Made by a program: the position numbers and the translations under genes. From Candidatus Spongiisociaceae bacterium (GTDB lineage: Bacteria; Actinomycetota; Acidimicrobiia; Spongiisociales; Spongiisociaceae), in the NCBI GenBank assembly GCA_965262915.1, contig OZ253564.1:704001-768000 (forward strand): 64,000 nucleotides of DNA. Reading direction: 5' to 3'. This document shows, piece by piece, positions 33,799-61,033 of this stretch. How positions within the stretch are numbered: the first letter of the stretch is position 1; each line of letters starts with the position of its first letter. Below the pieces are notes generated by a model. That model did not search any database, was not told where the DNA came from, and saw only the letters and a list, made by a program, of their open reading frames with translations.

Positions 33799-35034
33799 TC
33801 AAGCTGCGGCTCGGTCGATGGTGGTTCGGTGTGCCCATGCGGTGTGTTCGTTGTAGGGGGTTTGGTGTTTGAGGCAGCCGTGGAGGATGCCGACGAGTCG
33901 GTTGGCGAGGGCTCGGAGTGCTTGGTGGTGGAGGTCGTCGGCTGCTCGGCGTTTGTCGTAGAAGGCTCGGGCTCCTGGACTGTTCTTTAGGGAACAGAAC
34001 GCCCATTGGTCCAGGGCGTTGGGGAGACGCCGGTTACGGACCTGGCGAGCCAGGACAGCGTGCTTGCGGCCTGACGCCACTGTGATGGGCGACGTGCCGG
34101 CGTAGTTCGTGGGGGACTTGGCGCTGGTGTAACGGTCGGGGTCGTCCCCGAACTCACCGAGCGCCCGGGCGCCGAGCACAGTACCGAGTCCTGGCTGAGA
34201 CAGGTAGATGTCGGCGTCCGGGTGTTCTCTAAAACGGGTCTCGAGGGTTGCTTGGAGGTCTGCGATCTGGCGGTTGGTTTCCACAATGAGTTTCACCAGT
34301 GCCCCAACAGTCGCCCCGAAGGCGTCCGCGACCGGCCCCGGCGCGGTGAGATGGCGGGTACGGAGACCTTTCTGTATGCGGCGGGCAACCTTGTCGAGGT
34401 TGCGTCGCCGTCCGCCCCTCTGTAGCGCTGCTCGGATCTGGGGCAGTGTCAGGCGGGCGCCCAGGATTGGGGTGGGTGCCCGACCGAGTATGGCCACAGC
34501 GTCGCGATGGGCCAGGTCATCGAAGGTTTCCAGCGCTGCGGGATAGTACTCGCGCAGGGCGTTGCGGACTTGGTTGGTGTGACGCGTCCGAGCCCAGATC
34601 AGGTTCTGATGCGTTCTGGCCATGATCTTGATCGCGTCTGATTCGGGGCTGTCACCGGCCACCGAACGATGGTTGTGACGGTCGGTGCGTACCAAATCAG
34701 CTAACACCTTGGCATCACCGCGGTCTGATTTCGCTCCGCCCAGGCTGTGACGGTCCCGGTAGCGGGACACAGCCCTAGGATTGATCGCATACACCAAATA
34801 GCCCGCTGCGATGAGCGCACCCACCCACAGCCCACGATCGGTCTCGATCCCTACCACCACCTCAGCTGCATCCGATGCGTGTTCGGCGACCAACTGGTGG
34901 AAGCGGGCTATACCTTGGATCCCTTCCGGGAGACGGGCGAAACCCAGCCGGGTCCCATCCTCGTCCATCAGATACACATCATGGTGGCCCTCAGCCCAGT
35001 CGTTACCCACAAATATCATCCCTTCCTCCTTCAA
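33799..35034 (-). CDS. IS110 recombinase, open frame
   Basis: GNDWAE, GIETD, KSDRGDA, AGTSPITVASG and ALRALANRL motifs. Confidence 0.93.
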   Translation of the reverse strand: MKEEGMIFVGNDWAEGHHDVYLMDEDGTRLGFARLPEGIQGIARFHQLVAEHASDAAEVVVGIETDRGLWVGALIAAGYLVYAINPRAVSRYRDRHSLGGAKSDRGDAKVLADLVRTDRHNHRSVAGDSPESDAIKIMARTHQNLIWARTRHTNQVRNALREYYPAALETFDDLAHRDAVAILGRAPTPILGARLTLPQIRAALQRGGRRRNLDKVARRIQKGLRTRHLTAPGPVADAFGATVGALVKLIVETNRQIADLQATLETRFREHPDADIYLSQPGLGTVLGARALGEFGDDPDRYTSAKSPTNYAGTSPITVASGRKHAVLARQVRNRRLPNALDQWAFCSLKNSPGARAFYDKRRAADDLHHQALRALANRLVGILHGCLKHQTPYNEHTAWAHRTTIDRAAA

Positions 35035-40226: not shown

Positions 40227-42047
40227 CTACTGTGCGGCGAAGTTGCGACCTCGGAGCAGGTAGCCGGCTACCTGGGCCCGGGAGTTGGAATCCCACGGGC
40301 AGAACTTCAGCGGGTCGGCCGAGCAACTGCCGGTGATCCCGGCTGCGTACGACGAGTCGATGTTCGGGGCGTGGACGGTCCGGGCGGTGTCGACGAACCC
40401 CACCGGCTCCGCCGCGGGTAGGGCGAACGCCCGCTTGAGCAAGGTGGCCATCTGCGCCCGGGTCACCTCCGTCTCGGGGCAGTACTTATCGGGATCCTCC
40501 GTGCACCCGAGCGTAACGTTCAGATCCGCAAGACGCTCGACGTAGGGTGCCCACCACACCTTGGGATCCACATCGGTGAAGCGCACCGAGGACACCGGAT
40601 CGGGATCCATCCCGTCGAGCACGCGTACGAACCACACCGCGGCTTCCCAACGGAGGAGCGGTCCACCCGGGCACAAGAGACCCTCGCTGCATCCGGTGTC
40701 TTCGAACACCCCCTCCCCGTAGAGGATACGCACAGCCCTCGTGTGCTCTCCTGCCGAGTCGAGATCCGAAAAGCTGTCCGTGTCGGTCGAATCCGGTTCC
40801 CCGCCGTTGTTGTCGCCGCCGTTGTTGTTGTTGTTGCCTCCGGCGTCGGTGCCTCCGGTGTTGGTGCCTCGGGTGTTGGTGCCTCCGCCTCCGTTGTTGG
40901 TGCTGCCTCCGTTGTTGGTGCTGCCGCCGTTGGTGTTGCCGGGGTTCTGTTCCGTGACATCGATACTTACCTCAACGGTGTCGCTTGCCAGCATGGGATC
41001 GGTGGCCTTGACCGTGACCATGTATCCGCCCGTGTCCAGGGGATGCCCGTTGGTCCTTATCTGGCCGGTATCGGGCTTTATCCGGAACGTATCGGTATCG
41101 CCGCCCTCCAGGCTGTAGGTCAGGGGGTCGTTGTCCGGATCCGAGGCTGTCACGGGGGCTCCGACAGGGCTGTCCATCCTCGCGTTCTTCGAGACCGCCC
41201 GATCGACTGACTCGGTGCCGAAATCAGGCGGCGAGTTCGACCCGTTTACGGGGTTGCCGGGTACGCGGTCCTCCGAGACAGTATGGGCACACGCCGGCTG
41301 GTAGTCGAGATTGTCATAGAAGACTTCGGGCCGCAGATAGTGCCCTGCATCTTCCGCCCTGGGTGTATAGCTGTCCGTGTAGCGTGCGACGATCGTCCAA
41401 GGGCCATCCGGGCGAACCGAGCGAGCCCACGTCCATTGCTCCCTGGTTGCGCCGGCGGGATCGTGCAGAGTAGCGGTCAACGTCACGCCCACGAGCGGAT
41501 ACAACGACTGTACCGACACCGATGGGAGCAACTCCTGGTGCGGGCGGCTCAGATCGTTGGCCGGGATTCTGAGTCCCAGGACTCCGAGGAAGGCCTTGGC
41601 GTCGGAATCGTTGTCGCGCCAGAGGCCCTCGATACCGATGACCTCGCACTGTTCGGCGTCGTTGTCGTTCCGTACGTTGATCCTGGCGTAGGCGGATGTC
41701 TCTCCGGCCGGGATGACGATCTTACGGTCATACAAGGTGTTGCCGATCGACGGCAGCGAGCTTCCGTTCGAGCCGGTGATGGTGAAGTCCGCTTGGCTGC
41801 CTTCCGTTGCCGTTCCGCGGATCGCCAGGTACACGTGCCTGTCGACCTCGTCGGGTTGGCCGTCGCCAAAAGAGAAGATCAGCTTCGCGCGACGGCCCTC
41901 ACGGAAGTCGGAGGCATCGACAAACATGTGGATATCCGGATCTTCGCCGTTGTTCTGGGCCGAGGCGGGAACCATCAGAAACAGGACGCCCGCGACAAGA
42001 GGGACGAATGCAACACTCGCCGCCTTCAGCAGACGCCCTAACTTCAT
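40227..42047 (-). CDS. Secreted Calx-beta-like/cadherin-like protein with a Gly/Asn linker and C-terminal SLH domains
   Basis: Signal peptide; ASDPDNDPLTYSL cadherin-like motif; GGSTNN linker; VTRAQMATLL. Confidence 0.82.
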   Translation of the reverse strand: MKLGRLLKAASVAFVPLVAGVLFLMVPASAQNNGEDPDIHMFVDASDFREGRRAKLIFSFGDGQPDEVDRHVYLAIRGTATEGSQADFTITGSNGSSLPSIGNTLYDRKIVIPAGETSAYARINVRNDNDAEQCEVIGIEGLWRDNDSDAKAFLGVLGLRIPANDLSRPHQELLPSVSVQSLYPLVGVTLTATLHDPAGATREQWTWARSVRPDGPWTIVARYTDSYTPRAEDAGHYLRPEVFYDNLDYQPACAHTVSEDRVPGNPVNGSNSPPDFGTESVDRAVSKNARMDSPVGAPVTASDPDNDPLTYSLEGGDTDTFRIKPDTGQIRTNGHPLDTGGYMVTVKATDPMLASDTVEVSIDVTEQNPGNTNGGSTNNGGSTNNGGGGTNTRGTNTGGTDAGGNNNNNGGDNNGGEPDSTDTDSFSDLDSAGEHTRAVRILYGEGVFEDTGCSEGLLCPGGPLLRWEAAVWFVRVLDGMDPDPVSSVRFTDVDPKVWWAPYVERLADLNVTLGCTEDPDKYCPETEVTRAQMATLLKRAFALPAAEPVGFVDTARTVHAPNIDSSYAAGITGSCSADPLKFCPWDSNSRAQVAGYLLRGRNFAAQ

Positions 42048-43308: not shown

Positions 43309-43633
43309 CCCGTCGGCCTTAGCCCAAGAGCCCGCGCAGAACCCCGCGTCAATCGGCGTCCGCGACTACAACCCCTTACTAATTATCATTGCTGCAATTA
43401 CAGTTCTTGACCCCTATTCGCAATCAAGATGCTCGAATGTTTCTCTCGAATTGCCCATGTGCGCATCCCCGGCCTGAACGTACCTGGCGGCGGGGAGCTA
43501 CCCGATACAGCATCGGTCGGACGGTACCCGATGTACGCCTATACAACCGGCCTGCACTACCCTTCCCCCGATGAGGTACGGGCCGCCTTCGGTGGCCAGT
43601 GTCGGTGTCGAGGGATCGGATGAAGAGGCCGGA

Positions 43634-45742
43634 ATGGGCCGGATCATGACAGGAATCTGCAGGCGTTGGAGCGCGGTGTTGGCCATGGTGATGGTCGCTC
43701 CGTTGCTGGCCCTGGCATCGGGCCCGGCCGTGGCCGTCGACGGGAAAGCCGACAACCTGGCCTCCTACACGGCATGCGTGGCTGACGCGATCGCCTCGGC
43801 GGGCTTCGTCGACACGCTGGGGCACTTCGCCGAGGAGGCGATCGACTGCCTGGGGTACTACGGGATCACCTTGGGCACCACGCCGGAACGGTTCTCGCCC
43901 AACCAGCCGATCACCCGATGGCAGATGGCCCTGTTCCTGGTCCGGGCGGCGGTGCCGGCCGGGGTCGAGCTGCCGGAGCCTTCCGATCAGGGTTTCGAGG
44001 ATCTGGATCGCATGGCGCCCTTCATCCGGGATGCGATCAACCAGGTGGCGGCTATGGGTATCACGCGGGGGACGTCGCCCACCACCTTCTCCCCGACGTT
44101 GCGCATGGACCGCCGTTCCATGGCCTTGTTCATCTACCGCTTCCTCCGCATGGCCCCGCCGGGACCCGGCGGAGCCGACGCCAGCCTGATCATCCCCGAC
44201 GACACCGTGTTCGAGGACCTGAGCGGTCAGTCGGAGGACGCCGTGACCGCCATCCGGGTCATATACGAGATGGGGGTCACCACCGGCACCACCGCCACCA
44301 CCTTCTCGCCCAACCGGAGGGTGACCCGGGCACAGATGGCATTGTTCTTCACGAGGGCCTTGGCCCACACCAATGCCCGTCCCGTCGGGGTGACCATCCA
44401 GAGCGACGCGGACCTGGTCTCCGCCGGGGACACGCTCGATGTCCACATCTCCATACGGAACAAGTCCTTCGGTACCCGGGCCGGGGCGCTGGTCGATGTT
44501 TTCTCCACCCCTGCGGATGACCCCTACTCGTCGTTCGGCCCGGACGGGGCCTGCCTGCTGGGGGTCGAGGTGGCCTTCGGGGGCCGGGTGTGCATGATCG
44601 ACCGGTCCGACCAGCGTCTCAACGAGTCCGGCAACCTGCTCGTGATCCTCGAGCCGACCGACAACATGCTGCTGTGGGCCTGGGCGGGTTCGGTGGAAGA
44701 GGAGTTCCGGGTCAACAGCACCACGTCCGGATCTATCGATATCCAGGTCCTCAAGCCGGCCGCGGCCGTGAGGGTCCGCGACGATATGAGGCTTACGGCC
44801 ACCAGATTGAAGCTGGGCGACACGGTGGAGGTGGCGTTCCAGCTGGTGGACGACGACGGCAGGCCCGTCAGCGAGGCCGGTGTCGGGATCCAGATCGTGA
44901 CCACCTACGAGACGAACGGGGTCACCGACCGGACGAAGATCGCCACCTACCGGACCGACAGCGAGGGACTGGTGTTGGTTCCCTTCCGGGCGACGGATCC
45001 CGACAGAGCAGCGAGCAACGACTCGGTGACCCTGGACATCGACGTGGTGACGCAGGCGCTCGGGGTGGTGGACCAGACCACGCTGGGTGTGGTCGCGGAC
45101 GACGCCGACGACCGGGACGACGATGTGTTCACCTGGTCCGAGGAAGCCGCGGTGGCCTCCACGCTCAGGGTGAGGCAGTCGGTCGCCTATCACGAGATAC
45201 CCGAGTCGGGTCCCGGTCCGGTCCAGTTGGTGCGGGCCATCCTCACCGACCAGTACGGCGATCAGGTGACCGACGCCCGGATTGACTTCTCGTCGGACGA
45301 CCTGCTCGGCTTGGGAACGGGTCCGGTGAGCAAGAACACCGACAGTTCCGGTGTGGCTGCGTTGCGCTACCGGCGGGACGTCTCGACACCCTCGTCCGAG
45401 CTCATCTCCGCCGAGACCTCCGACGGCAACGTGGACGCCCGGCCCATCTACCACTACTGGGCGGAACCCCAGCCCGACAGGAGCTCGGCCCTGGGGATCC
45501 CTGTCCTGTTGGGCGATGTGCGCAACAACGTGATCCTGTACGACGCCTTCTCGCCCAAGCTGCTCCGCTACGACGCCAACGACCGCTTCGCCATCCGAGA
45601 CATAGTCGTCACCATGTCCGCCTTCGAGGAAGCCTTGGCCTCCGGCGACTACAAGCGCCTCAGCTACAGCCGCTACTCCACCGAGCCCGGGAAGACCAGC
45701 TCCTTCGAGTTGACCAATACCAGGATCTTCGACGAGGCGTGA
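43634..45742 (+). CDS. SLH-domain surface protein paralog
   Basis: Signal peptide, 3 SLH, LAHTNARPVG, DQYGDQV. Confidence 0.88.
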   Translation: MGRIMTGICRRWSAVLAMVMVAPLLALASGPAVAVDGKADNLASYTACVADAIASAGFVDTLGHFAEEAIDCLGYYGITLGTTPERFSPNQPITRWQMALFLVRAAVPAGVELPEPSDQGFEDLDRMAPFIRDAINQVAAMGITRGTSPTTFSPTLRMDRRSMALFIYRFLRMAPPGPGGADASLIIPDDTVFEDLSGQSEDAVTAIRVIYEMGVTTGTTATTFSPNRRVTRAQMALFFTRALAHTNARPVGVTIQSDADLVSAGDTLDVHISIRNKSFGTRAGALVDVFSTPADDPYSSFGPDGACLLGVEVAFGGRVCMIDRSDQRLNESGNLLVILEPTDNMLLWAWAGSVEEEFRVNSTTSGSIDIQVLKPAAAVRVRDDMRLTATRLKLGDTVEVAFQLVDDDGRPVSEAGVGIQIVTTYETNGVTDRTKIATYRTDSEGLVLVPFRATDPDRAASNDSVTLDIDVVTQALGVVDQTTLGVVADDADDRDDDVFTWSEEAAVASTLRVRQSVAYHEIPESGPGPVQLVRAILTDQYGDQVTDARIDFSSDDLLGLGTGPVSKNTDSSGVAALRYRRDVSTPSSELISAETSDGNVDARPIYHYWAEPQPDRSSALGIPVLLGDVRNNVILYDAFSPKLLRYDANDRFAIRDIVVTMSAFEEALASGDYKRLSYSRYSTEPGKTSSFELTNTRIFDEA

Positions 45743-45851: not shown

Positions 45852-46958
45852 TCACTCCAGCTTGTCGAGCAGCCTTTCGAGCCGGCTCACGCTGAAACCG
45901 GACGGGCTATTGCCTACCCGGTTGCCGTCCTTGTCGAGCAGCCAGACCTGGGAGTTACGGGATCCATAGTGCTCATGGACGGTGTCGGACTCGTCCCACA
46001 GATTGGTGAACGTCAGACCCTTGGAGTTCACGAAACTCTCTGCGGCACTGAGGGAGTTGTAATCCTTGGGGTTGATGCCTATCACGGTGACTCTGTGAGC
46101 GTTGTCTCGAGCAAACTGCTCGACTTCCGGGGCTTCTCCCCGGCAGTACGGTCACCAGGAAGCCCAGAACCAGAACAGCACCGCCTTGTCGCGCGTGAAG
46201 AGGGACCGGAGGTTCACGGTCTCGCCGCTGGAGATGTCGGTGAGGTCGACATCGGGAACGTCGGCGCTGAGTTCGGTCATCGCGGGTTCGGTCATCTGCT
46301 CCTTCTGTTTGAGCAGTGCCCGGTGGAGGAAGGTGGCCATCTGGGCTCGGGTGACGGAGTCGTCGGGGCAGTAGCTCAGGGGGTCGGTCTTGCATCCGGT
46401 CGTGATACCCGCCGCGGCAAGGGCGTCGATGTTGGCTTCGTGGGTGTTGCCTGCGGTGTCGGTGAACCCGGCCGGGGAGGCGCTTTCGAGGTCGAAGGCG
46501 TGGACGAAGAAGGTGGCCATCTGGGCTCGGGTGACGGAGTCGTCGGGGCAGTAGCGGAGGGGGCCGGTCTTGCATCCGGCGGTTATGTCGCGGTCGGCGA
46601 GTTCCTCCGCGTAGGGGGACCACCAGTCGGAGGCGTCCACATCGGCGAACCGGGAGGTGGTGGAGGTGGTGACCTCGCCGCCGAGGACCCGGATGAGCCA
46701 CACCGCCATCACCCAGCGGTCGATCGGATCGTCGGGGCAGAAGAGGCCGTCCCCGCATTCGGTGTCGTCGAACACGCCCATCTCGGCGAGGGCTTTGATA
46801 GCCGGCTCGTGGGTGCCGCCCGAACTCACATCGGAGAACCCGTCGGCGCCGGCGGCCGGTAGCGAGGTGAGCATCGAAGCCAGCAACGCCGCGATGACCA
46901 GTGCCGATAGGGCGCCCCGGCGGCACCGGAGGGATGCGGTGCGCTCATATGCCGTCAT
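45852..46958 (-). CDS. Putative selenoprotein: SLH x3 + TlpA/thioredoxin-like domain (W-U-P-Y-C)
   Basis: FWASW-TGA(46152-46154)-PYCRGEAPEVEQF continues in frame into ORF 45852-46085. Confidence 0.82.
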
Positions 46959-47126
46959 GATGCTTCTCCCATTCGGGCCAGGCCTTCATGTTAGTTCTCC
47001 GGATGGCCCTGCTGTCGGGTATCGCCCACGGTCCTCACTCCCGGAGGAGAAATGGGCTAGCCGTGTGGACGATGGCGGAGGGTTTCGGACCGGTTCCAGG
47101 CGACCCTCCACATGGGCAGTTGGTCG

Positions 47127-48251
47127 TCACGAGGCGGATGCCTCCAACGCCGCCAGCAACCTCTCGATCAGGCCTGCGTCGAAGAAGGGAGGACCGCTCA
47201 CCGGGTTGCCTTGCGCGTCGAGGATGCGGTACGTCACCCGGTCGCCTTGCTCGTTGAGCAGCCGGAACTCGGACCAGTACCTGATTCCGTAGTGGTTTAT
47301 TAGCCCAGGGGGACGGTCCCGCAGGATGGGGAAGGTTAGCCCGTGGGTGGTCGCGAAGTCGCCGACCTCTTCGAAAGTGCCCAGGTAGTTGACTGCTATG
47401 ACCCTGACCCTGTCTGAGTTGTCACGAGCGAACTGCTCGACGGCCGGCGCATGCGCCTGGCACTTCGGTCAGAAAGGTGATAGGAACCACAGGAGGAGAG
47501 GCTTGTCGCCGGTTACGAACGAGCGGAAGTTCACGGTCTCGCCGGTGGAGATGTCGACCAGGTCTACGTCGGGGACGTCGTCGGAGATGGTGACCGGTTC
47601 GGGTTCGCCCATCTGTTCCTTCTGTGCGAGCAGGGCCCGGTGGAGGAAGGTGGCCATCTGGGCGCGGGTGACGGGCTGGTCGGGGCAGTAGCGGAGCGGA
47701 TCGGTCTCGCATCCCGCCGTGATGCCGGCTTCGGCCAAGGCGTCGATGTTGGCCCCATGCGTGTTGCCCTCGGTGTCGGTGAACCCGGCCGGGGAGGCGC
47801 TTTCGAGGTCGAAGGCGTGGACGAAGAAGGTGGCCATCTGGGCTCGGGTGACCGAGTCGTCGGGGCAGTAGCGGAGCGGGTCGGTCTCGCACCCGGTGGT
47901 GATGTCGCGGTCGGCGAGTTCCTCCGCGTAGGGCGACCACCATTCGGAGGCGTCCACGTCGGCGAAGCGAGACGTACCGGTGGTGGTGGGCTCGTCGCCC
48001 AGGACCCGGATGAGCCATACGGCCATCACCCACCGGTCGATGGGATCGTCGGGGCAGAAGAGGCCGTCCCCGCATTCGGTGTCCGCGAATACGCCCCGGT
48101 CGGCGAGGTCGTTGATGGCCGGCTCGTGTACTCCACCGGAACCGACGTCGGAGAAACCCTCCGCGCCGGCGGCCGGGAGTGGGGTGGCAGCAGCCGCGGC
48201 CAGCGTCGCCGCGACCAGCGCAGCCCGCCAGCGTCTGCGGCGCAGGGTCAC
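47127..48251 (-). CDS. Putative selenoprotein: SLH x3 + TlpA/thioredoxin-like domain (F-U-P-K-C)
   Basis: WFLSPF-TGA(47469-47471)-PKCQAHAPAVEQF; the frame stays open to the TGA at 47127. Confidence 0.82.
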
Positions 48252-48318
48252 GCCCTATCCGCTGGAGAAGGCGGCACTGGGGTTTCCACGGCGGTGCTCC
48301 TCCCTAGGGGACCGGATG

Positions 48319-49332
48319 TCACAGTAGCTCGTCCAGGAGGCGTTCGACCAGGGTCTTGTGGAAAGGCGCGGTGCGGTCCGTCAGCCGGTTGCCGAACGGA
48401 TCCAGTAGCAGGAAGTCCGATGTGCTCTCCATGTTGTAGTGGTCCCACGCCTCGCGGGACTCGCTCCAGAGCGCGGTGAAGGTGACGCCCTTGGAGGCCA
48501 CGAATTCCTGGGCGATTTCCAGCGTGCCGATGCCCCCGACGCCGACGACGGTCAGTCGGTGGGAGTTGTCTCGAGCGAACTGCTCGATGGCCGGGGCCTC
48601 TTCCCGGCACGTCTCTCAGAAGGGGGACCAGAACCAGAACAGGAGCGGTTTCTCCCCCTTCACCACCGACCGCAGGCTGACCAATGCACCCGTAGCCGCG
48701 TCGAACATGTCGACGTTGGGAACATCGTCGGAGATCTCCAAGGCGATGGGCGCCTCGGTCGTGGTCGGAGCGGCTGTGGTGGTCGTGGCCGGGGCTTCGG
48801 TGGTGGTGGTCGGTGCCTCGGTGGTTTCGGTGGTCGTGGGTACGGTTTCGGCTGCCGCCGGGTCCTCGGCCGGGGTGGTGTCCGCGACCGTGATCTCGGT
48901 CGTAGCCGGGGTGGTTTCGGTGACCGCCGCGCTGGTCACGGTGGTCGCCTGGGTGGTGCCAGATGCGGTGGAGGCGGTAGCGGTCTCTGCTGTCTCCTCC
49001 CCGGCGGTGGTTGTGGTGGTGTCCGCGACCGCGTTCGTAGTGGTCTGTCCGGATGCCTTCTCCGACGGGGGAGTGGTCTCCTCGACGCTGGGCCGGGTGG
49101 TCGGTACGGTTGACGTGGCGACCGTCTCCGTCGCGACGGCTGCCGGCGGCGAGGCGGTGGTTGCTGAGGCGGTGGTTTCCGGAAGTTCTACGCCTACCGA
49201 GCTATCCCCGCTGCCGCACCCCGCGATCAGCAGGGCCGTCGACACCACAGCGATGACCGATCCGGCCGATCGACGGTCGAGTCGTCGGGTGTGTGACTGA
49301 CGTACTTCGTTCGACCCCAAGACCCGGGCCAT
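48319..49332 (-). CDS. Putative seleno-lipoprotein: lipobox + Thr-rich linker + TlpA-like domain (F-U-E-T-C); start uncertain
   Basis: LLIAGC lipobox; FWSPF-TGA(48616-48618)-ETCREEAPAIEQF in frame with ORF 48319-48501. Confidence 0.82.
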
Positions 49333-49729
49333 TGGGCCTGGCGCGCTGTTACGTTCGCGACCCTTTCGTCCCATGGCACAACGGCGCGGGCCATTGCGAA
49401 CCTGACGGGCACCGCTTGCCACCCACCTTCTTGCTGTCACCGTCTAAGCATAAAGGCTGTCGAGAGTTCGGGATCGGCTGTTGAGTCCGCTGTTCACGAG
49501 GCACCGACAATCGGGAGCGACGCGTCGTTACTTACTGCGGTTCAATCGCCATCACATCAACACCTCGAGCAAGTATCACGCCCCTGTTAGGCGAGACCGC
49601 GGCCGGTCGCCAACTGGGAGGCGCACCTCGTGAGAGCCGGCCCGGAGGGTGGCAGGCGACTCACGAGCCAGCCCAACCAATGCCCTACCGGACGCTTAGG
49701 ACCTCCAAGCCACAGCGAGCAGTCTCCAC

Positions 49730-52700
49730 CTAGAGGTTGGCGGCTGAGTCACCCACAGTTGACGTTCCGGGGTCAGATCCACCTGCGTCTTGGGTTATCG
49801 TGATCGTGGTGTGGGGTGTGGTGGATACCACGGTGATGGTGTAGCCACGGATGGTGACACTTTCTCCATCGGTCAGGATTGGGAACCCTTTGATGTGTCC
49901 GGTACCTGGATCACCAGCCACCTTCACGGGGAGTTCGCCTGTGGCGATGGCGGCGTCCACCGTGTAGATGAGTACACCTTCTGCGGGTAGTGCAGGGAGG
50001 AGAGTCTCGTTTCCCTCAGGGGTTCGGTATTCTGTACCTGTGTCATAACCCAGGTTACGTCTGTTTTCGATGACAATCACTTCAGTGTCAGACAAGGGAA
50101 CAGCCACCATGCCTATCCCTGCCCCGGGGTCAGCGACGGGACTCAGGGTGACGGTCACCTCAGATTCGGTCACACAGAGAATCTGGGCGGTGTCGAGCCA
50201 GCCCAGCTGCCAGCGGCTCCATGCCAGCATTTCAAGAGCCTCCAGCGAGTTTGCGTAGCCGGTGGATCGCGATCCGTCCGGATGTTGTCATACATGAGCA
50301 ACTCGGGGGTCACCTTGGGAAGATACCGGGAAGTTGACCCGCATGCCCATGAGACCGAATCTGGCGTGAGCCCAGGTCCGGCCACGGGGTGTGTACTCCG
50401 CTCGGTGGCGGCGTAAGTCGTAGGGCCCGAGGTCCAGTAGCCCGAGATTGTGGACCAGTTCGTGGGCGCCTACCCGTCCTTGGTGGTACGTCGGACCTGA
50501 TGGGAATGCGTTCATGCGGAGAGTTGAGACAGTGCCTTCATCGGTCTGGACTGATCCAAGAGCGTTGCCTCCACTGAAGTGGGCGCTGGGCATGAGAACT
50601 ATCAGGGCGTCGATGCCCGTGAAGTCGAAGTCGGGATCCGCCAACCGTACAGCTTCCCTATCTACCTCATGTCTCAGTTCAGGGATTCCATAAGGGCTGG
50701 TGTAGATGTGGTCCCGGTAGTTGAACTCTGCCCTTAGCCACCGGTCCAGAGACACGAACTCCAAGTCGAGCTTGCCGTAGCTGGAGGTCTCCAGATACTT
50801 CTCCATGTAGCGAAGCACCGATTCTGCCTCATGTGCCACCGATGTGGTTGCTTGAGCGTCTGGGAAGTCCACGAAGAGCACCGCTACCCGTACAGTCCCG
50901 GTTGAGGGCACCGCCCGGCCGGGCAGGGGGAACCCGGCTGTCGTACCCTCCACGCCCTTCGGACGGCACATCCGGGGGTCCGGACCCTGGGTCCATGGAG
51001 CTTGTTGCACGGCAGCCGGAAACGAGACAACCGGGTCTCGACCCCAGCAGGTGACGGTTCCGTTGGTGCGGATTCCACACGAGTGGGCTCCTTCGGCGGT
51101 AACTGCTGTGAACTCCCCTTGGGGGGCGTCGGTCTGACTATCGGAGTTTCCTCCCCAGCAGACGACTGTCCAGTCGTTGCGGACTCCACACGAATGCTCA
51201 AACCCGGCAGCAACCGAGCTGAACTGCCCCTCGGGAGCGTCCGCCTGATTCTCCCAGTTGCCACCCCAGCAGGCAACCGTCCCATCGGTGCGGACTCCAC
51301 ACGAATGCCCGTATCCCGCGGACACCGTGCTGAACTGCCCCTCGGGAGCGTCTGCCCGACCGGCCCAGTTCGAACCCCAGCAGGTGACCGTCCCATCGGT
51401 GCGGACTCCACACGAATGCCCGTATCCGGCAGCAACCGTGCTGAATTGCCCCTCGGGAGCGTCCGCCCGACCGGCCCAGTTCGAACCCCAGCAGGCAACC
51501 GTCCCATCGGTGCGGACTCCACACGAATGCCCGTATCCGGCAGCAACCGTGCTGAATTGCCCCTCGGGAGCGTCCGCCCGGCCCCACCAGTTCTCTCCCC
51601 AGCAGGCAGCCGTCCCATCGGTGCGGACCCCACACGAATGAGCGAACCCGACGGTCAAACCTAGAAACGTTCCGTCTGGTGGGTCGACACGCCCCCCTCC
51701 TCCATAACCCCAGCAGGCAACGGTCCCATCGGCACGGACTCCACACGAATGCCCACCCCCCGTCGAAACAGCGCTGAACTTTCCTTGCGGAGCCTCCGGT
51801 CGACCATCGGTGTTCTCTCCCCAGCAGGCCACCGTCCCATCGCTGCGAACCCCACACGAATGGAACTCTCCCGCCGATACGGCACTGAACTTTCCTTCGG
51901 GTGGGTCAGATCGACCATCGGTGTTCTCTCCCCAGCAGGCCACCGTCCCATCGCTGCGAACCGCACATGAATGGGTTTCCCCCGCCGATACAGCGCTGAA
52001 CTTCCCCCAGGGAGCGTCTGCCCGGCCCCACCAGTTCTCTCCCCAGCAGGCCACCGTCCCATCGCTGCGAACTCCACACGAATACCCACTCCCGGCGGAC
52101 ACCGCTGCGAACTTGCCCTCGGGAGCGTCAACCCGACCGTCCGAGTTCGCACCCCAGCAGACAACCGTCCAATCGGTACGGATCCCACACGAATGAGCGT
52201 CCCCCGCCGATACAGCGCTGAACCTCCCCTCGGGGGCGTCCACCTGATCCCCCCAGTTCGCACCCCAGCAGACAACCGTCCCCTCAGTACGGATCCCACA
52301 CGAATACCCATACCCGGCGGACACCGCGCTGAACTCCCCCTCCGGAGCGTCAGCCTGATCCCCCCAGTTCGTACCCCAGCAGACAACCGTCCAATCGGTA
52401 CGGATCCCACACGAATGCCCATTCCCGGCGGACACCGCTCTGAACTCTCCCTGCGGCGCGGCAGCCTGACCGTCCCAGTTCCCACCCCAGCAGACAACCG
52501 TCCAATCAGTACGGATCCCACACGAAAAACCATTGCCACTGGAAACCGTTGCGAACCCCCCATCCTGGGGTGGTTGGTCAGGCCGAACCGAACCGAACCG
52601 CAGAGCACGGCTCAAGAACGTTGCCATCTGACCACGAGTGGTTTCCCGCCGGGGACAGTACCGAGCCGGGCTAGTCGAACACCCCGCCGTCACACCCACA

Positions 52701-59479: not shown

Positions 59480-59866
59480 GCCGGTTTTGAGGGCTACGAG
59501 ACCGAAGCGGCATCCCTTTGACGAGCTGTTGGGCTCCGACGCCTCGAACTTGTGCTGCTTGACATCGATCAGGTCCAACCGTCCCGACCAGCACTGCTGC
59601 GTTCTGCCCGCCGGGCCCGGGTCGTGGGTGTTCGGGGCAAGGGAAGAACCCAGCGCACAGTGTTCCTGTCCGTCGACGCCCGCCGTGCCCTGGCCGGCTA
59701 CCTGGAGGTGGAACGACCGTTCGACGCCACCGACGAGTCCACCGCGTTGTTCCTGTCCGCTGTTTCGGTGAGCAGCCGCCCCCCGACGGGCGGCTCTCCG
59801 GGCGCAGTGTCAACACCGTCCTCGAACGTATCGGCCGGCTCCACGACGCGGAACACACCGAACCCG
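59480..59866 (+). pseudogene. Tyrosine recombinase (XerC/D-like) internal fragment
   Basis: LLDIDQV..VRGKGRTQRTVFL..ALAGYL..ALFLS..RLSGRSVNTVLERIG; stops before the HxxR motif. Confidence 0.7.
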
Positions 59867-59869
59867 TAC

Positions 59870-61033
59870 GGTTCAACCTACGCGTGGTGGAGGGAACACA
59901 ACCCGGAAGCTGGGCAGTTCCCCGCGGATCGGAACCTGTCCCGTTATGACCTGTTCAAGATGTTCACCCTGGTCCGGAGCGAGGATCCCCGCTGGGCGGC
60001 GGTGGACACCAGGGTGGGCCGGGGTGTCATCTGTCGTTTCGACCGGACGACCAAGTCTTTTTACAAGCGCTGCAGCAGGGAAGGGACCAAGCCCGGATAT
60101 CCCCGTTTCAAGCCCCGACACCGGTGGAGGAGCATCGAGATAGTGAACGCCGGGGCCCAGATGCTCGTACCGCCGGGTCCCGGGGGTCGATGGTGGCGTC
60201 TGCGGGTCAAGGGAGTCCCCGCAGCCAGGTTCTGCGATGGCAACGGACGGCTGGCCGCCGCTCTCGATGCTGGCACGGTGGTGGAGCTGTGGGTGGTGCG
60301 CACCCCGTTGCGGGTGGAGTTGCATGTGGTGGTCGGACACGACGCGGATACCACTGTGGTGTCCGCTCCTCTGAACCCGGTGGGGATAGACAAGGGCCTG
60401 TCGACGCGGATGGCACTGTCCGACGGGCGGTACGTACCGGCGCGGACCATCGACAATCAGGTTGTCCGCCGGTACCAGCGTCGCCTGGCGCGAGCACAAC
60501 GGGGATCTCGGTCCCGGGCCAAGAAGCGGGCTGCTGTGGCCAGGGTCCGGCGCAGGGAAACCGAGAGAGCCCGGGCGGCGGACTTCCGCCTGGCCCACGA
60601 CCTCGTTACTTCCTTCGACGGCGTCGCCGTCGAGGACCTCAACATCGCGGGACTGCTCCGCTCCCGCAGATACTCCAAGAAGATGTCGGAACAGCGGTGG
60701 GGTACCTTCGACCTCGTACTGGGACACAAAGCCGAGAAAGCTGGTGTCCCGTATGTGAAGGTGAGCCCTTCCCATACCAGCACAGATTGCTCCCGATGCG
60801 GGCATCGCCAGCCGATGCCGCTCGGAACCAGAGTCTATCGGTGCGGGAGTTGCCGTCTCAGCCTGTGCAGGGACGTCAACGCCGCCAGGAACATATGCGC
60901 CCGGGCCTTCCCACAGGTCCGGGGTCGGGAGGGGCCACCACCTGACGCGGCGCGCTATACAAACAACCACCGTGAGACCGACTCGCCCCCTAGGGCAGGG
61001 ACGCAAGTGGTCGCCGCAGAACAGTATGCCTGA
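59870..61033 (+). CDS. tnpB: IS200/IS605 TnpB RNA-guided nuclease, N-terminus missing
   Basis: PGYPRFK, RuvC I VGIDKG, RuvC II VEDLNI, Zn finger CSRC/CGSC, RuvC III RDVNAARNI. Confidence 0.88.
   Translation, partial: GSTYAWWREHNPEAGQFPADRNLSRYDLFKMFTLVRSEDPRWAAVDTRVGRGVICRFDRTTKSFYKRCSREGTKPGYPRFKPRHRWRSIEIVNAGAQMLVPPGPGGRWWRLRVKGVPAARFCDGNGRLAAALDAGTVVELWVVRTPLRVELHVVVGHDADTTVVSAPLNPVGIDKGLSTRMALSDGRYVPARTIDNQVVRRYQRRLARAQRGSRSRAKKRAAVARVRRRETERARAADFRLAHDLVTSFDGVAVEDLNIAGLLRSRRYSKKMSEQRWGTFDLVLGHKAEKAGVPYVKVSPSHTSTDCSRCGHRQPMPLGTRVYRCGSCRLSLCRDVNAARNICARAFPQVRGREGPPPDAARYTNNHRETDSPPRAGTQVVAAEQYA

What the first reader, a model, noticed from the sequence alone, without database searches (positions are those of the whole stretch)
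45852..49332. Three tandem exported thioredoxin-fold selenoprotein candidates (UxxC): two SLH-anchored, one lipoprotein
Seen: three adjacent paralogous TlpA-like domains each have TGA exactly at the first Cys position of CxxC (UPYC, UPKC, UETC). Each frame stays open for a further ~100 homologous residues while the flanking codons diverge. Established: TGA aligned with a redox Cys is the hallmark of selenocysteine. Inference: a surface-displayed selenium redox cluster beside Cys-containing SLH proteins. I do not know of a described SLH-selenothioredoxin fusion, and standard gene callers would split these genes.
Basis: partly seen in the sequence, partly recalled or inferred. Interest (0 to 1): 0.86.

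Follow-up and report, generated by a model that had tools for sequence, protein, structure and literature searches.

The report
Wall-anchored selenocysteine thioredoxin-fold proteins
Three neighbouring genes for exported thioredoxin-like enzymes, two tied to the cell wall and one to the membrane, almost certainly use selenocysteine instead of the first active-site cysteine; this enzyme type is already known with selenium, but the wall-anchored form has not been described.

Summary
Three minus-strand genes (A 46958-45855, B 48251-47130, C 49332-48322) each have an in-frame TGA at the first Cys of the CxxC motif of a TlpA/ResA/DsbE-like thioredoxin fold. Each frame stays open for 98-113 homologous residues after it.

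The selenocysteine reading is strongly supported:
- The genome has tRNA-Sec, selA, selB and a Sec-containing selD.
- 42 of 43 strong matches in relatives carry the TGA, and 50 of 54 across the class do.
- dN/dS downstream of the TGA is about 0.3.
- A hairpin, CGAGC-[A/G]GUU[C/U]-GCUCG, starts 28 nt after the TGA in all 73 TGA forms examined. It shows two compensatory pair changes and a fixed rare Ala codon (GCT 41/41). Its loop and spacing match the hairpin after selD's own UGA.
- The hairpin is missing from 4 of 4 distant Cys forms. It remains as a fossil in one recent Cys convert.

A and B have a signal peptide and three SLH repeats. C has a lipobox and a Thr/Pro-rich stalk. Public gene calls truncate these genes at the TGA.

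UxxC TlpA-like selenoproteins have been listed since 2005, so this is a new variant (SLH and RCC1 fusions, tandem paralogues) of a known kind. The substrate and the redox direction are inferred, not shown.

The parts
45855..46958 (-). Gene A, 368 codons. It has a signal-peptide-like N-terminus (..LPAAGA/DG), three SLH repeats that each hold a Cys pair, a short linker, and a TlpA/DsbE-like thioredoxin fold with active site U-P-Y-C. The final stop is TGA at 45852-45854.
   Evidence: (SLH 52.2 bits, AhpC-TSA 61.7, Redoxin 55.7)
46152..46154 (-). In-frame TGA of gene A, read as selenocysteine (residue 269).
46107..46123 (-). Proposed SECIS core of gene A: UCGAGC-AGUUU-GCUCGA. It starts 28 nt after the UGA and overlaps codons V-E-Q-F-A-R.
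46127..46143 (-). First GC-rich hairpin of gene A (CCGGGG-AGAAG-CCCCGG). Its register varies between homologues and its role is uncertain.
47130..48251 (-). Gene B, 374 codons. It has a signal-peptide-like N-terminus, three SLH repeats and a thioredoxin fold with U-P-K-C. The final stop is TGA at 47127-47129.
47469..47471 (-). In-frame TGA of gene B, read as selenocysteine (residue 261).
47424..47440 (-). Proposed SECIS core of gene B: U-CGAGC-AGUUC-GCUCG-U.
48322..49332 (-). Gene C, 337 codons counted from ATG 49332 (the frame is open back to GTG 49440, so the start is uncertain). It has a lipobox LLIAG-C (Cys codon 49216-49218), a Thr/Pro/Ala-rich linker of about 160 residues, and a thioredoxin fold with U-E-T-C. 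The final stop is TGA at 48319-48321.
48616..48618 (-). In-frame TGA of gene C, read as selenocysteine.
48571..48587 (-). Proposed SECIS core of gene C: UCGAGC-AGUUC-GCUCGA.

Best explanation
The three genes encode genuine selenoproteins.

Decoding. During translation, SelB carrying Sec-tRNA(Sec) is recruited by a small mRNA hairpin, CGAGC-[A/G]GUU[C/U]-GCUCG. The hairpin begins 28 nt after the UGA and lies inside the coding sequence for the conserved motif E-Q-F-A-R. The UGA at the first active-site position is therefore read as selenocysteine and not as stop. This is shown by comparative evidence, not by chemistry.

Location. The products leave the cytoplasm. This is inferred from signal-peptide-like N-termini, a lipobox and SLH domains. 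A and B are held on the cell wall by three SLH repeats. C is held on the membrane by a lipid anchor and a long Thr/Pro-rich stalk.

Activity. Each carries a TlpA/ResA/DsbE-like thioredoxin fold whose U-x-x-C centre cycles between selenol/thiol and selenenylsulfide. Each therefore catalyses thiol-disulfide exchange outside the cell (inferred from fold and motif).

My committed guess for the role, at about 0.4, is reduction or isomerisation (proof-reading and repair) of disulfides in the very Cys-rich SLH/RCC1 wall proteins encoded around them. In this reading the stalked lipoprotein paralogue passes redox equivalents between a membrane partner (one CcdA and one DsbB homologue exist in the genome) and the wall-anchored paralogues. 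Selenium would give fast exchange and resistance to irreversible over-oxidation in an oxic exterior; that rationale is recalled from general selenium chemistry and comes from no call.
For: Sec machinery:
- tRNA-Sec (anticodon tca) at C1:4818892-4818982 scores 77 bits against a cut-off of 47.
- selA scores 433.7, selB 333.2 and selD 390.3, all over their cut-offs. selD has its own in-frame TGA at PGAG-U-ACK.

Conservation of the TGA:
- In 41 related genomes, 42 of the 43 matches with E <= 5.6e-21 contain exactly one TGA. All 7 other genomes of the genus and all 8 genomes of a second genus have such a gene.
- 41 of 42 family members fetched have TGA at the first Cys position. The other has TGC.
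- Across the class, 37 of 401 genomes (17 of 177 genera) match at E <= 1e-25. Of the 54 matches listed, 50 have one TGA.

TGA is otherwise a stop here. Gene A ends in TGA 99 residues after U, where its orthologues end in TAG or TAA 100-107 residues after U.

Selection downstream of the TGA, leaving out the 16 hairpin codons:
- Median dN/dS is 0.316 for type A (115 usable of 120 pairs) and 0.290 for type C (91 of 91).
- Upstream values are 0.264 and 0.137.

SECIS:
- In 73 TGA forms, the 6-pair hairpin is paired in 97.3% of cells and the 5 core pairs have no unpaired cell.
- Pair 33-47 is CG in 66 sequences and UA in 7. Pair 35-45 is AU in 72 and CG in 1.
- The Ala codon inside the stem is GCT in 41 of 41, against 41 of 345 Ala codons (12%) elsewhere in these domains. 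The Glu codon is GAG in 41 of 41.
- dS in the 16 codons after the TGA is lowered: 0.62 against 1.31 for type A, and 0.34 against 0.97 for type C.
- selD of the same genome has GCGCA-GGUUC-UGCGC starting 27 nt after its UGA, which is the same loop and spacing.
- Four of 4 distant Cys forms pair at only 1-3 of the 6 positions and lack EQFAR. One close Cys form (TGC) keeps 6 of 6, a fossil of recent conversion.

Fold:
- The AlphaFold model has pLDDT 96.6, with U37 between strand 27-32 and helix 38-53.
- The best solved matches are M. tuberculosis DsbE (1lu4) and DsbF (3ios), then ResA, Etrx1/2 and SdbA.

Anchors:
- SLH is found in 22 of 35 full-length family proteins and RCC1 repeats in 4 of 35.
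- A pyruvyl-transferase (CsaB-type, PF04230) gene is present at 93.5 bits.

Possible partners: one DsbD_TM/CcdA homologue and one DsbB homologue.

Pairing of paralogues: type A and type C lie within 2 kb of each other in 9 of the 16 genomes of the two genera. This is my count from the coordinates.
Against: - Nothing here shows selenium in the protein.
- The hairpin is short (5-6 bp). Single-sequence folds of the 60 nt after the TGA are not clearly better than shuffles (z = -2.16, +0.20 and -1.70).
- No Rfam family matched at E <= 1.
- Four of the six hairpin pairs barely vary, so the covariation rests on two pairs and probably on few independent events. The sequences are kin, so the pair counts overstate independence.
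- Part of the nucleotide conservation could come from selection on the peptide EQFAR itself.
- Export was judged by eye; no signal-peptide predictor was available.
- The role and the redox direction are unsupported by any test. The closest solved relatives (Mtb DsbE and DsbF) are described as oxidants, from my recollection of the literature and not from a call, which points the other way from my guess.
- CcdA and DsbB are both distant on the chromosome.
- The nearly invariant Ser where the thioredoxin-fold cis-Pro is expected (position judged) shows that the active site is not a textbook TlpA site.
Confidence: 0.88

Rival explanations
1. The TGAs are ordinary stops or inactivating mutations. 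On this reading the genes are pseudogenes, or they encode only truncated SLH or stalk proteins, and the downstream open frames are relics.
For: Public gene calls treat them this way. All 10 database hits of comparable length are SLH-only proteins of 248-272 aa that end at the TGA. A 77-aa C-terminal fragment is called separately. TGA is also the normal stop of all three genes.
Against: The TGA is kept at the same codon in 73 sequences from many genera. dN/dS downstream is about 0.3. A stop there would cut a thioredoxin fold between strand 1 and helix 1. Complete Sec machinery is present.
Confidence: 0.03
2. The UGA is read through, but not as selenocysteine. Alternatives are a genome-wide reassignment or near-cognate insertion of Trp or Cys.
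For: Another TGA in the window (50288-50290, in the SLH-RCC1-peptidase gene) aligns with Trp in its closest homologue.
Against: ARAGORN finds only one tRNA with anticodon tca, and it is tRNA-Sec. TGA ends genes where orthologues end in TAG or TAA. The recoded position aligns with Cys, never Trp, in Cys forms and in solved structures. The hairpin shared with selD argues for SelB-dependent decoding. The peptidase TGA has no such hairpin context and looks like a nonsense mutation.
Confidence: 0.03
3. They are genuine selenoproteins, but they act as extracytoplasmic oxidases that introduce disulfides into the Cys-rich wall proteins, as reported for M. tuberculosis DsbE and DsbF. They would be re-oxidised by DsbB or directly by oxygen or peroxide, and would not act as reductases or isomerases.
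For: The best sequence and fold matches are Mtb DsbE (1lu4, E 1.3e-12) and DsbF (3ios, 5.5e-12). A DsbB homologue exists. Neighbouring wall proteins are very rich in paired Cys. The wall anchor places A and B away from membrane CcdA.
Against: Most of the TlpA/ResA/CcmG/Etrx superfamily is reductive, and a CcdA homologue exists. No VKOR was found. No redox potential or partner was tested. That DsbE and DsbF are oxidases is recalled and was not checked in a paper here.
Confidence: 0.3
4. They are genuine selenoproteins whose U-x-x-C site mainly serves defence: it would detoxify peroxide or electrophiles, or bind metals or metalloids (Cu, Hg) at the cell surface, and would not act on protein disulfides.
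For: The best Pfam hit is AhpC/TSA (61.7 bits). The Pro expected in the cis-Pro loop, which contacts protein substrates in thioredoxins, is replaced by a nearly invariant Ser.
Against: The active-site geometry and motif are of the thioredoxin CxxC type, not the peroxiredoxin type. No metal-handling or peroxide-related genes were seen next to them.
Confidence: 0.12

Closest known systems
'Thiol-disulfide isomerase-like protein' selenoprotein family (UxxC; CDD cd02966, TlpA-like). It was first reported from the Sargasso Sea metagenome (PMC1088965) and is listed in the 2022 and 2026 reviews (PMC9312934, PMC13188914).
   Same: A thioredoxin-fold TlpA-like domain with Sec at the first position of UxxC, and a bacterial in-frame SECIS with a G in a small apical loop (tables and passages read).
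   Different: I could not compare sequences with the listed representatives, so identity of the family is unproven. None of the passages I read mentions SLH or RCC1 fusion, a lipoprotein form or tandem paralogues.
Mycobacterium tuberculosis DsbE (MPT53, PDB 1lu4) and DsbF (PDB 3ios)
   Same: Closest solved relatives by sequence (E 1.3e-12 and 5.5e-12) and by fold (TM 0.77-0.83). They share the secreted actinobacterial context and the motif W-C-P-x-C followed by ..EAP...
   Different: They have Cys, not Sec; only 30% identity; no SLH anchor. They keep the Pro of the cis-Pro loop, where this family has Ser (alignment, columns).
Surface-exposed thioredoxin-family lipoproteins Etrx1/Etrx2 of Streptococcus pneumoniae (PDB 4hqs, 2yp6) and ResA of Bacillus subtilis
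   Same: Membrane-tethered extracytoplasmic TlpA-like folds (Foldseek E 1e-9 to 1e-11). They are the natural analogue of gene C.
   Different: They have Cys, not Sec, and no long Thr/Pro stalk. Their CcdA dependence is recalled and was not tested here.
NCBIfam selenoprotein models NF041054 (ResA-like WAxxUGC motif-containing protein) and NF053656 (TUGYCR motif thioredoxin fold)
   Same: Sec-containing members of the same superfamily.
   Different: Scores are far below the cut-offs (34 against 300 bits, and 22.2 against 100), and the motifs differ. The family therefore has no dedicated model in that library.

Membership tests
Bacterial selenoprotein (SelB/SECIS-dependent UGA decoding) | In-frame UGA at a position occupied by Cys in homologues | tested here: met
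   TGC or TGT occupies the same codon in 5 Cys forms, and the first Cys of CPxC does so in 1lu4 and 3ios.
Bacterial selenoprotein (SelB/SECIS-dependent UGA decoding) | tRNA-Sec, SelA, SelB and SelD encoded in the genome | tested here: met
   All are over the curated cut-offs.
Bacterial selenoprotein (SelB/SECIS-dependent UGA decoding) | A stem-loop shortly downstream of the UGA with a G in a small apical loop (criterion as worded in PMC1088965) | tested here: met
   The hairpin has loop [A/G]GUU[C/U] beginning about 34 nt after the UGA, shows 2 compensatory pairs, and has the same loop and spacing as selD's hairpin.
Bacterial selenoprotein (SelB/SECIS-dependent UGA decoding) | Purifying selection on the sequence after the UGA | tested here: met
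   Median dN/dS is 0.316 and 0.290.
Bacterial selenoprotein (SelB/SECIS-dependent UGA decoding) | Selenium actually incorporated | not testable with these tools
   Needs 75Se labelling or mass spectrometry.
TlpA/ResA/DsbE-like extracytoplasmic thioredoxin fold (Pfam Redoxin/AhpC-TSA, cd02966) | Family profile matched over the cut-off | tested here: met
   AhpC-TSA and Redoxin are matched in 35 of 35 members.
TlpA/ResA/DsbE-like extracytoplasmic thioredoxin fold (Pfam Redoxin/AhpC-TSA, cd02966) | Thioredoxin fold with CxxC at the N-terminus of helix 1, resembling solved members | tested here: met
   pLDDT is 96.6, and TM is 0.77-0.83 to 1lu4, 3ios and ResA.
TlpA/ResA/DsbE-like extracytoplasmic thioredoxin fold (Pfam Redoxin/AhpC-TSA, cd02966) | Conserved cis-Pro loop opposite the active site | tested here: inconclusive
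   One search shows Ser nearly invariant just before strand 105-109, where DsbF has Pro. The position was judged from alignments only; model coordinates were not inspected.
TlpA/ResA/DsbE-like extracytoplasmic thioredoxin fold (Pfam Redoxin/AhpC-TSA, cd02966) | Membership of a named equivalog (ResA, DsbE/CcmG, TlpA, StoA) | tested here: not met
   The best scores are 41.1 against 170 (ResA), 38.3 against 123 (DsbE) and 24.2 against 230 (TlpA).
SLH-anchored cell-wall protein | SLH repeats present, and a pyruvyl transferase for the wall polymer in the genome | tested here: met
   SLH scores 52.2 and 47.4 bits against a cut-off of 20.8. Three repeats are visible in the sequence. PF04230 scores 93.5 bits.
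Bacterial lipoprotein (gene C) | Lipobox L-[AS]-[GA]-C after a hydrophobic signal segment | tested here: met
   The sequence reads ..VVSTALLIAG-C. Similar boxes occur in the type C orthologues. Lgt and Lsp were not searched for.

The most novel reading that the evidence does not exclude
A two-tier extracellular selenium redox relay. A membrane-tethered selenoprotein on a long flexible stalk (type C) would shuttle redox equivalents between a membrane partner (CcdA or DsbB) and wall-anchored SLH or RCC1-fused selenoproteins (types A and B). These in turn would keep a disulfide-rich wall proteome correctly folded and repaired. If so, this would be the first cell-wall-anchored selenoenzyme system, and it would be conserved as a Sec-dominant family across many Acidimicrobiia genera.
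Probability: 0.2. Interest if true: 0.7.

Novelty: new variant of a known kind. Interest (0 to 1): 0.5.

Why it matters
- **Annotation.** Public records call these genes 'S-layer homology domain-containing protein' and cut them at the TGA. A whole family is therefore mis-annotated: 37 of 401 genomes of the class, with 50 of 54 listed matches carrying TGA.
- **SECIS.** The family offers an unusually clean natural SECIS. It is a short hairpin with a fixed [A/G]GUU[C/U] loop shared with selD, present in every Sec form and lost in distant Cys forms. It could be used to find further selenoproteins in this class and to study SelB specificity.
- **Biology.** If the products are on the wall, they put selenium chemistry outside the cell on an SLH anchor. 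I found no report of this in the papers searched. It would bear on how Cys-rich surface layers are maintained in oxic water.

Tried and rejected
- **Hairpin 1.** I first took the GC-rich hairpin 9-27 nt after the TGA to be the SECIS. I rejected it as the core element. It pairs in only 69.9% of cells and 59.7%, its register shifts between subfamilies, and two type C orthologues lack it. It may still help.
- **Genome-wide pattern scan.** A scan for TGA followed by a 5-bp stem with an [AG]GTT[ACT] loop gave 21 hits. These were selD, the four family copies and 16 that look like noise. It is therefore not a general selenoprotein finder, and two other UxxC candidates in the genome do not fit it.
- **Rfam.** No match at E <= 1.
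- **Peptidase TGA.** The TGA inside the neighbouring SLH-RCC1-peptidase gene was considered as a fourth Sec site and rejected. It aligns with Trp or Leu in homologues that have no stop.
- **Sequencing runs.** No RNA holder was listed, so nothing can be said about expression. Contigs of other studies were laid. Pieces span the TGA of A (X7, 45852-46346), of B (X7, 47196-47663; X8, 47287-47579) and of C (X20, 48581-48731). None of the 40 difference rows shown falls on a TGA, but 164 rows were not shown, so this is only weak support.
- **NCBIfam.** No family passed its cut-off.
- **VKOR.** Not found (genome 96% complete).
- **Literature.** 'selenocysteine' with 'S-layer homology' gave 3 papers, of which 2 were listed, and neither title concerns such a fusion. 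'sponge', 'Acidimicrobiia' and 'selenocysteine' gave 1 paper, seen in the listing only. A six-term search on surface-exposed, lipoprotein and selenoprotein listed 10 of 30 papers, none relevant by title. I read only found passages of PMC1088965, PMC13188914 and PMC9312934, not the whole texts.
- **Rows dropped.** Three of the 39 class-level loci (L104, L105, L109) gave no match to my search expression and were not examined. One row (L101, plus strand) was a chance match and was left out. L061 and L062 (other UxxC candidates) were left out of the family alignments.
- **Unpublished genomes.** G028 and G039 were flagged as unpublished. They contribute only to the remark that distant same-order homologues (28-34% identity) have no TGA, and they are not in any alignment.


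Full report
**What is there.** On the minus strand of 45852-49440 lie three paralogous genes.

| Gene | Span | Layout |
|---|---|---|
| A | 46958-45855 | Arg-rich then hydrophobic N-terminus ending ..LPAAGA/DG; three SLH repeats, each with an inserted Cys pair; a 137-residue thioredoxin-fold domain |
| B | 48251-47130 | Same layout as A |
| C | 49332-48322 (start uncertain, frame open to 49440) | Lipobox (LLIAG-C); about 160 residues rich in Thr, Pro and Ala; the same thioredoxin-fold domain |

Pfam finds AhpC-TSA, Redoxin and Thioredoxin in all three and SLH in A and B. In each gene a TGA (46152-46154, 47469-47471, 48616-48618) sits where the first Cys of CxxC is expected (W-U-PYC, F-U-PKC, F-U-ETC). 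The frame then continues for 99, 113 and 98 residues.

**Is TGA selenocysteine? The machinery.** The window lies in a single 5.06-Mb contig with 64% G+C. That genome has the following:
- One tRNA with anticodon tca, which is tRNA-Sec (77 bits, cut-off 47).
- selA (433.7 bits) next to selB (333.2 bits).
- selD (390.3 bits), which itself reads PGAG-U-ACK through a TGA.

TGA is otherwise a stop. Gene A ends in TGA where its orthologues end in TAG or TAA. Another TGA in the neighbouring peptidase gene aligns with Trp or Leu in stop-free homologues and looks like a plain nonsense change.

**Comparative evidence.**
- In 41 related genomes, 42 of the 43 matches at E <= 5.6e-21 have exactly one TGA. 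Every genome of the window's genus (7 of 7 others) and of a second genus (8 of 8) has at least one such gene.
- Reading the fetched loci, 41 of 42 family members have TGA at the first Cys codon. The exception has TGC.
- With a profile of the domain, 37 of 401 genomes of the class (17 of 177 genera) match at E <= 1e-25. Of the 54 matches listed, 50 carry one TGA and 4 carry none.
- Record titles of close relatives read Acidimicrobiia and Candidatus Spongiisociaceae.
- Downstream of the TGA, leaving out the 16 hairpin codons, median dN/dS is 0.316 for type A (115 usable of 120 pairs) and 0.290 for type C (91 of 91). This is similar to the region upstream (0.264 and 0.137). The pairs are not independent, but the region is plainly under purifying selection.

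**The SECIS.** Two hairpins follow the TGA.

The first hairpin (nt 9-27 after the TGA) is GC-rich. It changes register between subfamilies and is absent from two type C orthologues. It pairs in 69.9% and 59.7% of cells in the two registers I tested.

The second hairpin is the convincing one: [U]CGAGC-[A/G]GUU[C/U]-GCUCG[A], starting 28 nt after the TGA and overlapping codons (V/I)-E-Q-F-A-R.
- In 73 TGA forms it pairs in 97.3% of cells, and the five core pairs have no unpaired cell.
- Pair 33-47 is C-G in 66 sequences and U-A in 7. Pair 35-45 is A-U in 72 and C-G in 1.
- Synonymous sites are frozen. The Ala codon in the stem is GCT in 41 of 41, although GCT makes up only 41 of 345 Ala codons elsewhere in these domains. 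Glu is GAG in 41 of 41.
- dS in the 16 codons after the TGA is about half that of the rest.
- selD in the same genome has GCGCA-GGUUC-UGCGC beginning 27 nt after its UGA, which is the same loop at the same distance.
- The hairpin tracks the TGA. All 32 class-level TGA forms have it. The 4 distant Cys forms pair at only 1-3 of 6 positions and lack EQFAR. The one close Cys form keeps a perfect fossil hairpin.

There are caveats. The stem is short. Single-sequence fold z-scores are unimpressive. Rfam has no match. The covariation rests on two pairs.

**The protein.** The AlphaFold model of the domain of gene A is confident (pLDDT 96.6). It places U37 between strand 27-32 and helix 38-53, the canonical thioredoxin position.
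- The best sequence and fold matches are M. tuberculosis DsbE (1lu4) and DsbF (3ios). ResA, the pneumococcal surface lipoproteins Etrx1/2 and SdbA follow.
- No NCBIfam equivalog is reached, and the two Sec-specific ResA-like models score far below their cut-offs.
- A nearly invariant Ser stands where the cis-Pro is expected. This is alignment-based only.
- Among 35 full-length family proteins, 22 carry SLH and 4 carry RCC1 repeats. Type C proteins are stalked lipoproteins.
- A CsaB-type pyruvyl transferase is present, as are one CcdA homologue and one DsbB homologue. No VKOR was found.
- The surrounding genes are SLH wall proteins with many paired Cys.
- Types A and C lie within 2 kb of each other in 9 of the 16 genomes of the two genera (coordinates).

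**Mechanism.**
- Shown by comparison: UGA is decoded, and the decoded product is under selection.
- Inferred: SelB binds the NGUUY hairpin. The products are exported and anchored to wall (A, B) or membrane (C). The U-x-x-C centre performs thiol-disulfide exchange through a selenenylsulfide.
- Guessed, at about 0.4: they reduce or isomerise disulfides of the Cys-rich wall proteome, with the stalked lipoprotein as a link to a membrane partner. An oxidase role (about 0.3) or a defence/metal role (about 0.1) is not excluded.

**Relation to what is known.** UxxC selenoproteins of the TlpA-like family (cd02966, 'thiol-disulfide isomerase-like protein') were reported from the Sargasso Sea in 2005. 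[quoted passage not shown] The kind is therefore known. I could not compare sequences with those representatives, and supplements were closed. I found no paper describing an SLH-anchored or RCC1-fused selenoprotein. Public protein records truncate these genes at the TGA.

**Verdict.** This is a real, well-supported set of selenoprotein genes. It is a new architectural variant of a known selenoprotein kind, it has a cleanly defined SECIS, and it is mis-annotated in public data. Its function outside the cell is plausible but untested.

Noticed in passing
window 50288-50290 (minus strand), within ORF 53290-49730: The 1186-codon SLH / RCC1-repeat / HExxH peptidase gene is interrupted by a TGA. That TGA aligns with Trp (closest homologue) or Leu in stop-free homologues of relatives. 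It is probably a nonsense mutation or an assembly error, not Sec. A second homologue in the same genome (C1:634810-635844) has an internal TAG.
   Followed up: yes
G000:C1:2313140-2313544 (locus L043): A fourth family copy in the same genome (SPY-U-PTC, perfect hairpin) has only 66 codons upstream of the TGA. Only the tail of the last SLH repeat remains, so it appears to be 5'-truncated.
   Followed up: partly
G000:C1:1226498 and C1:2053581 (loci L061, L062): Two further thioredoxin-fold candidates in this genome have TGA at WAEW-U-PAC-RRELP. They have different downstream hairpins, so they are probably another selenoprotein family.
   Followed up: partly
locus L060 (G006:C1:1770631-1771035): A Cys (TGC) member 56% identical to gene A keeps the complete UCGAGC-AGUUC-GCUCGA hairpin. 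This is a recent Sec-to-Cys conversion with a fossil SECIS.
   Followed up: yes
genes A, B, C and orthologues (alignment A4, column of S104 in gene A's domain): A nearly invariant Ser stands where the thioredoxin-fold cis-Pro is expected. The outlier L039 and M. tuberculosis DsbF keep Pro there. This is judged from alignments only.
   Followed up: partly
window 46314-46841 and 47630-48160 (SLH regions of A and B); also 53290-50288, 43571-45742: The SLH repeats here each carry an inserted Cys pair (for example TECGDGLFCPDD, AGCKTGPLRYCPDD). The neighbouring RCC1-repeat proteins have two Cys per repeat. The wall proteome is therefore unusually Cys-rich.
   Followed up: no
loci L044, L047, L057, L059: In relatives the same Sec-thioredoxin domain is fused to the C-terminus of large RCC1-repeat proteins (up to 1015 codons), with or without SLH.
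   Followed up: partly
window 33799-35034 (-) and 59552-61033 (+): An IS110-family transposase and an IS605 OrfB/TnpB-like (Cas12f1-like TNB domain) gene flank the SLH-rich region.
   Followed up: no
window 40227-42047 (-): A protein with a cadherin domain plus SLH lies in the same neighbourhood of wall proteins.
   Followed up: no
G000:C1:4560939-4561865: selD of this genome is itself a selenoprotein (PGAG-U-ACK), with the hairpin GCGCA-GGUUC-UGCGC starting 27 nt after its UGA.
   Followed up: yes
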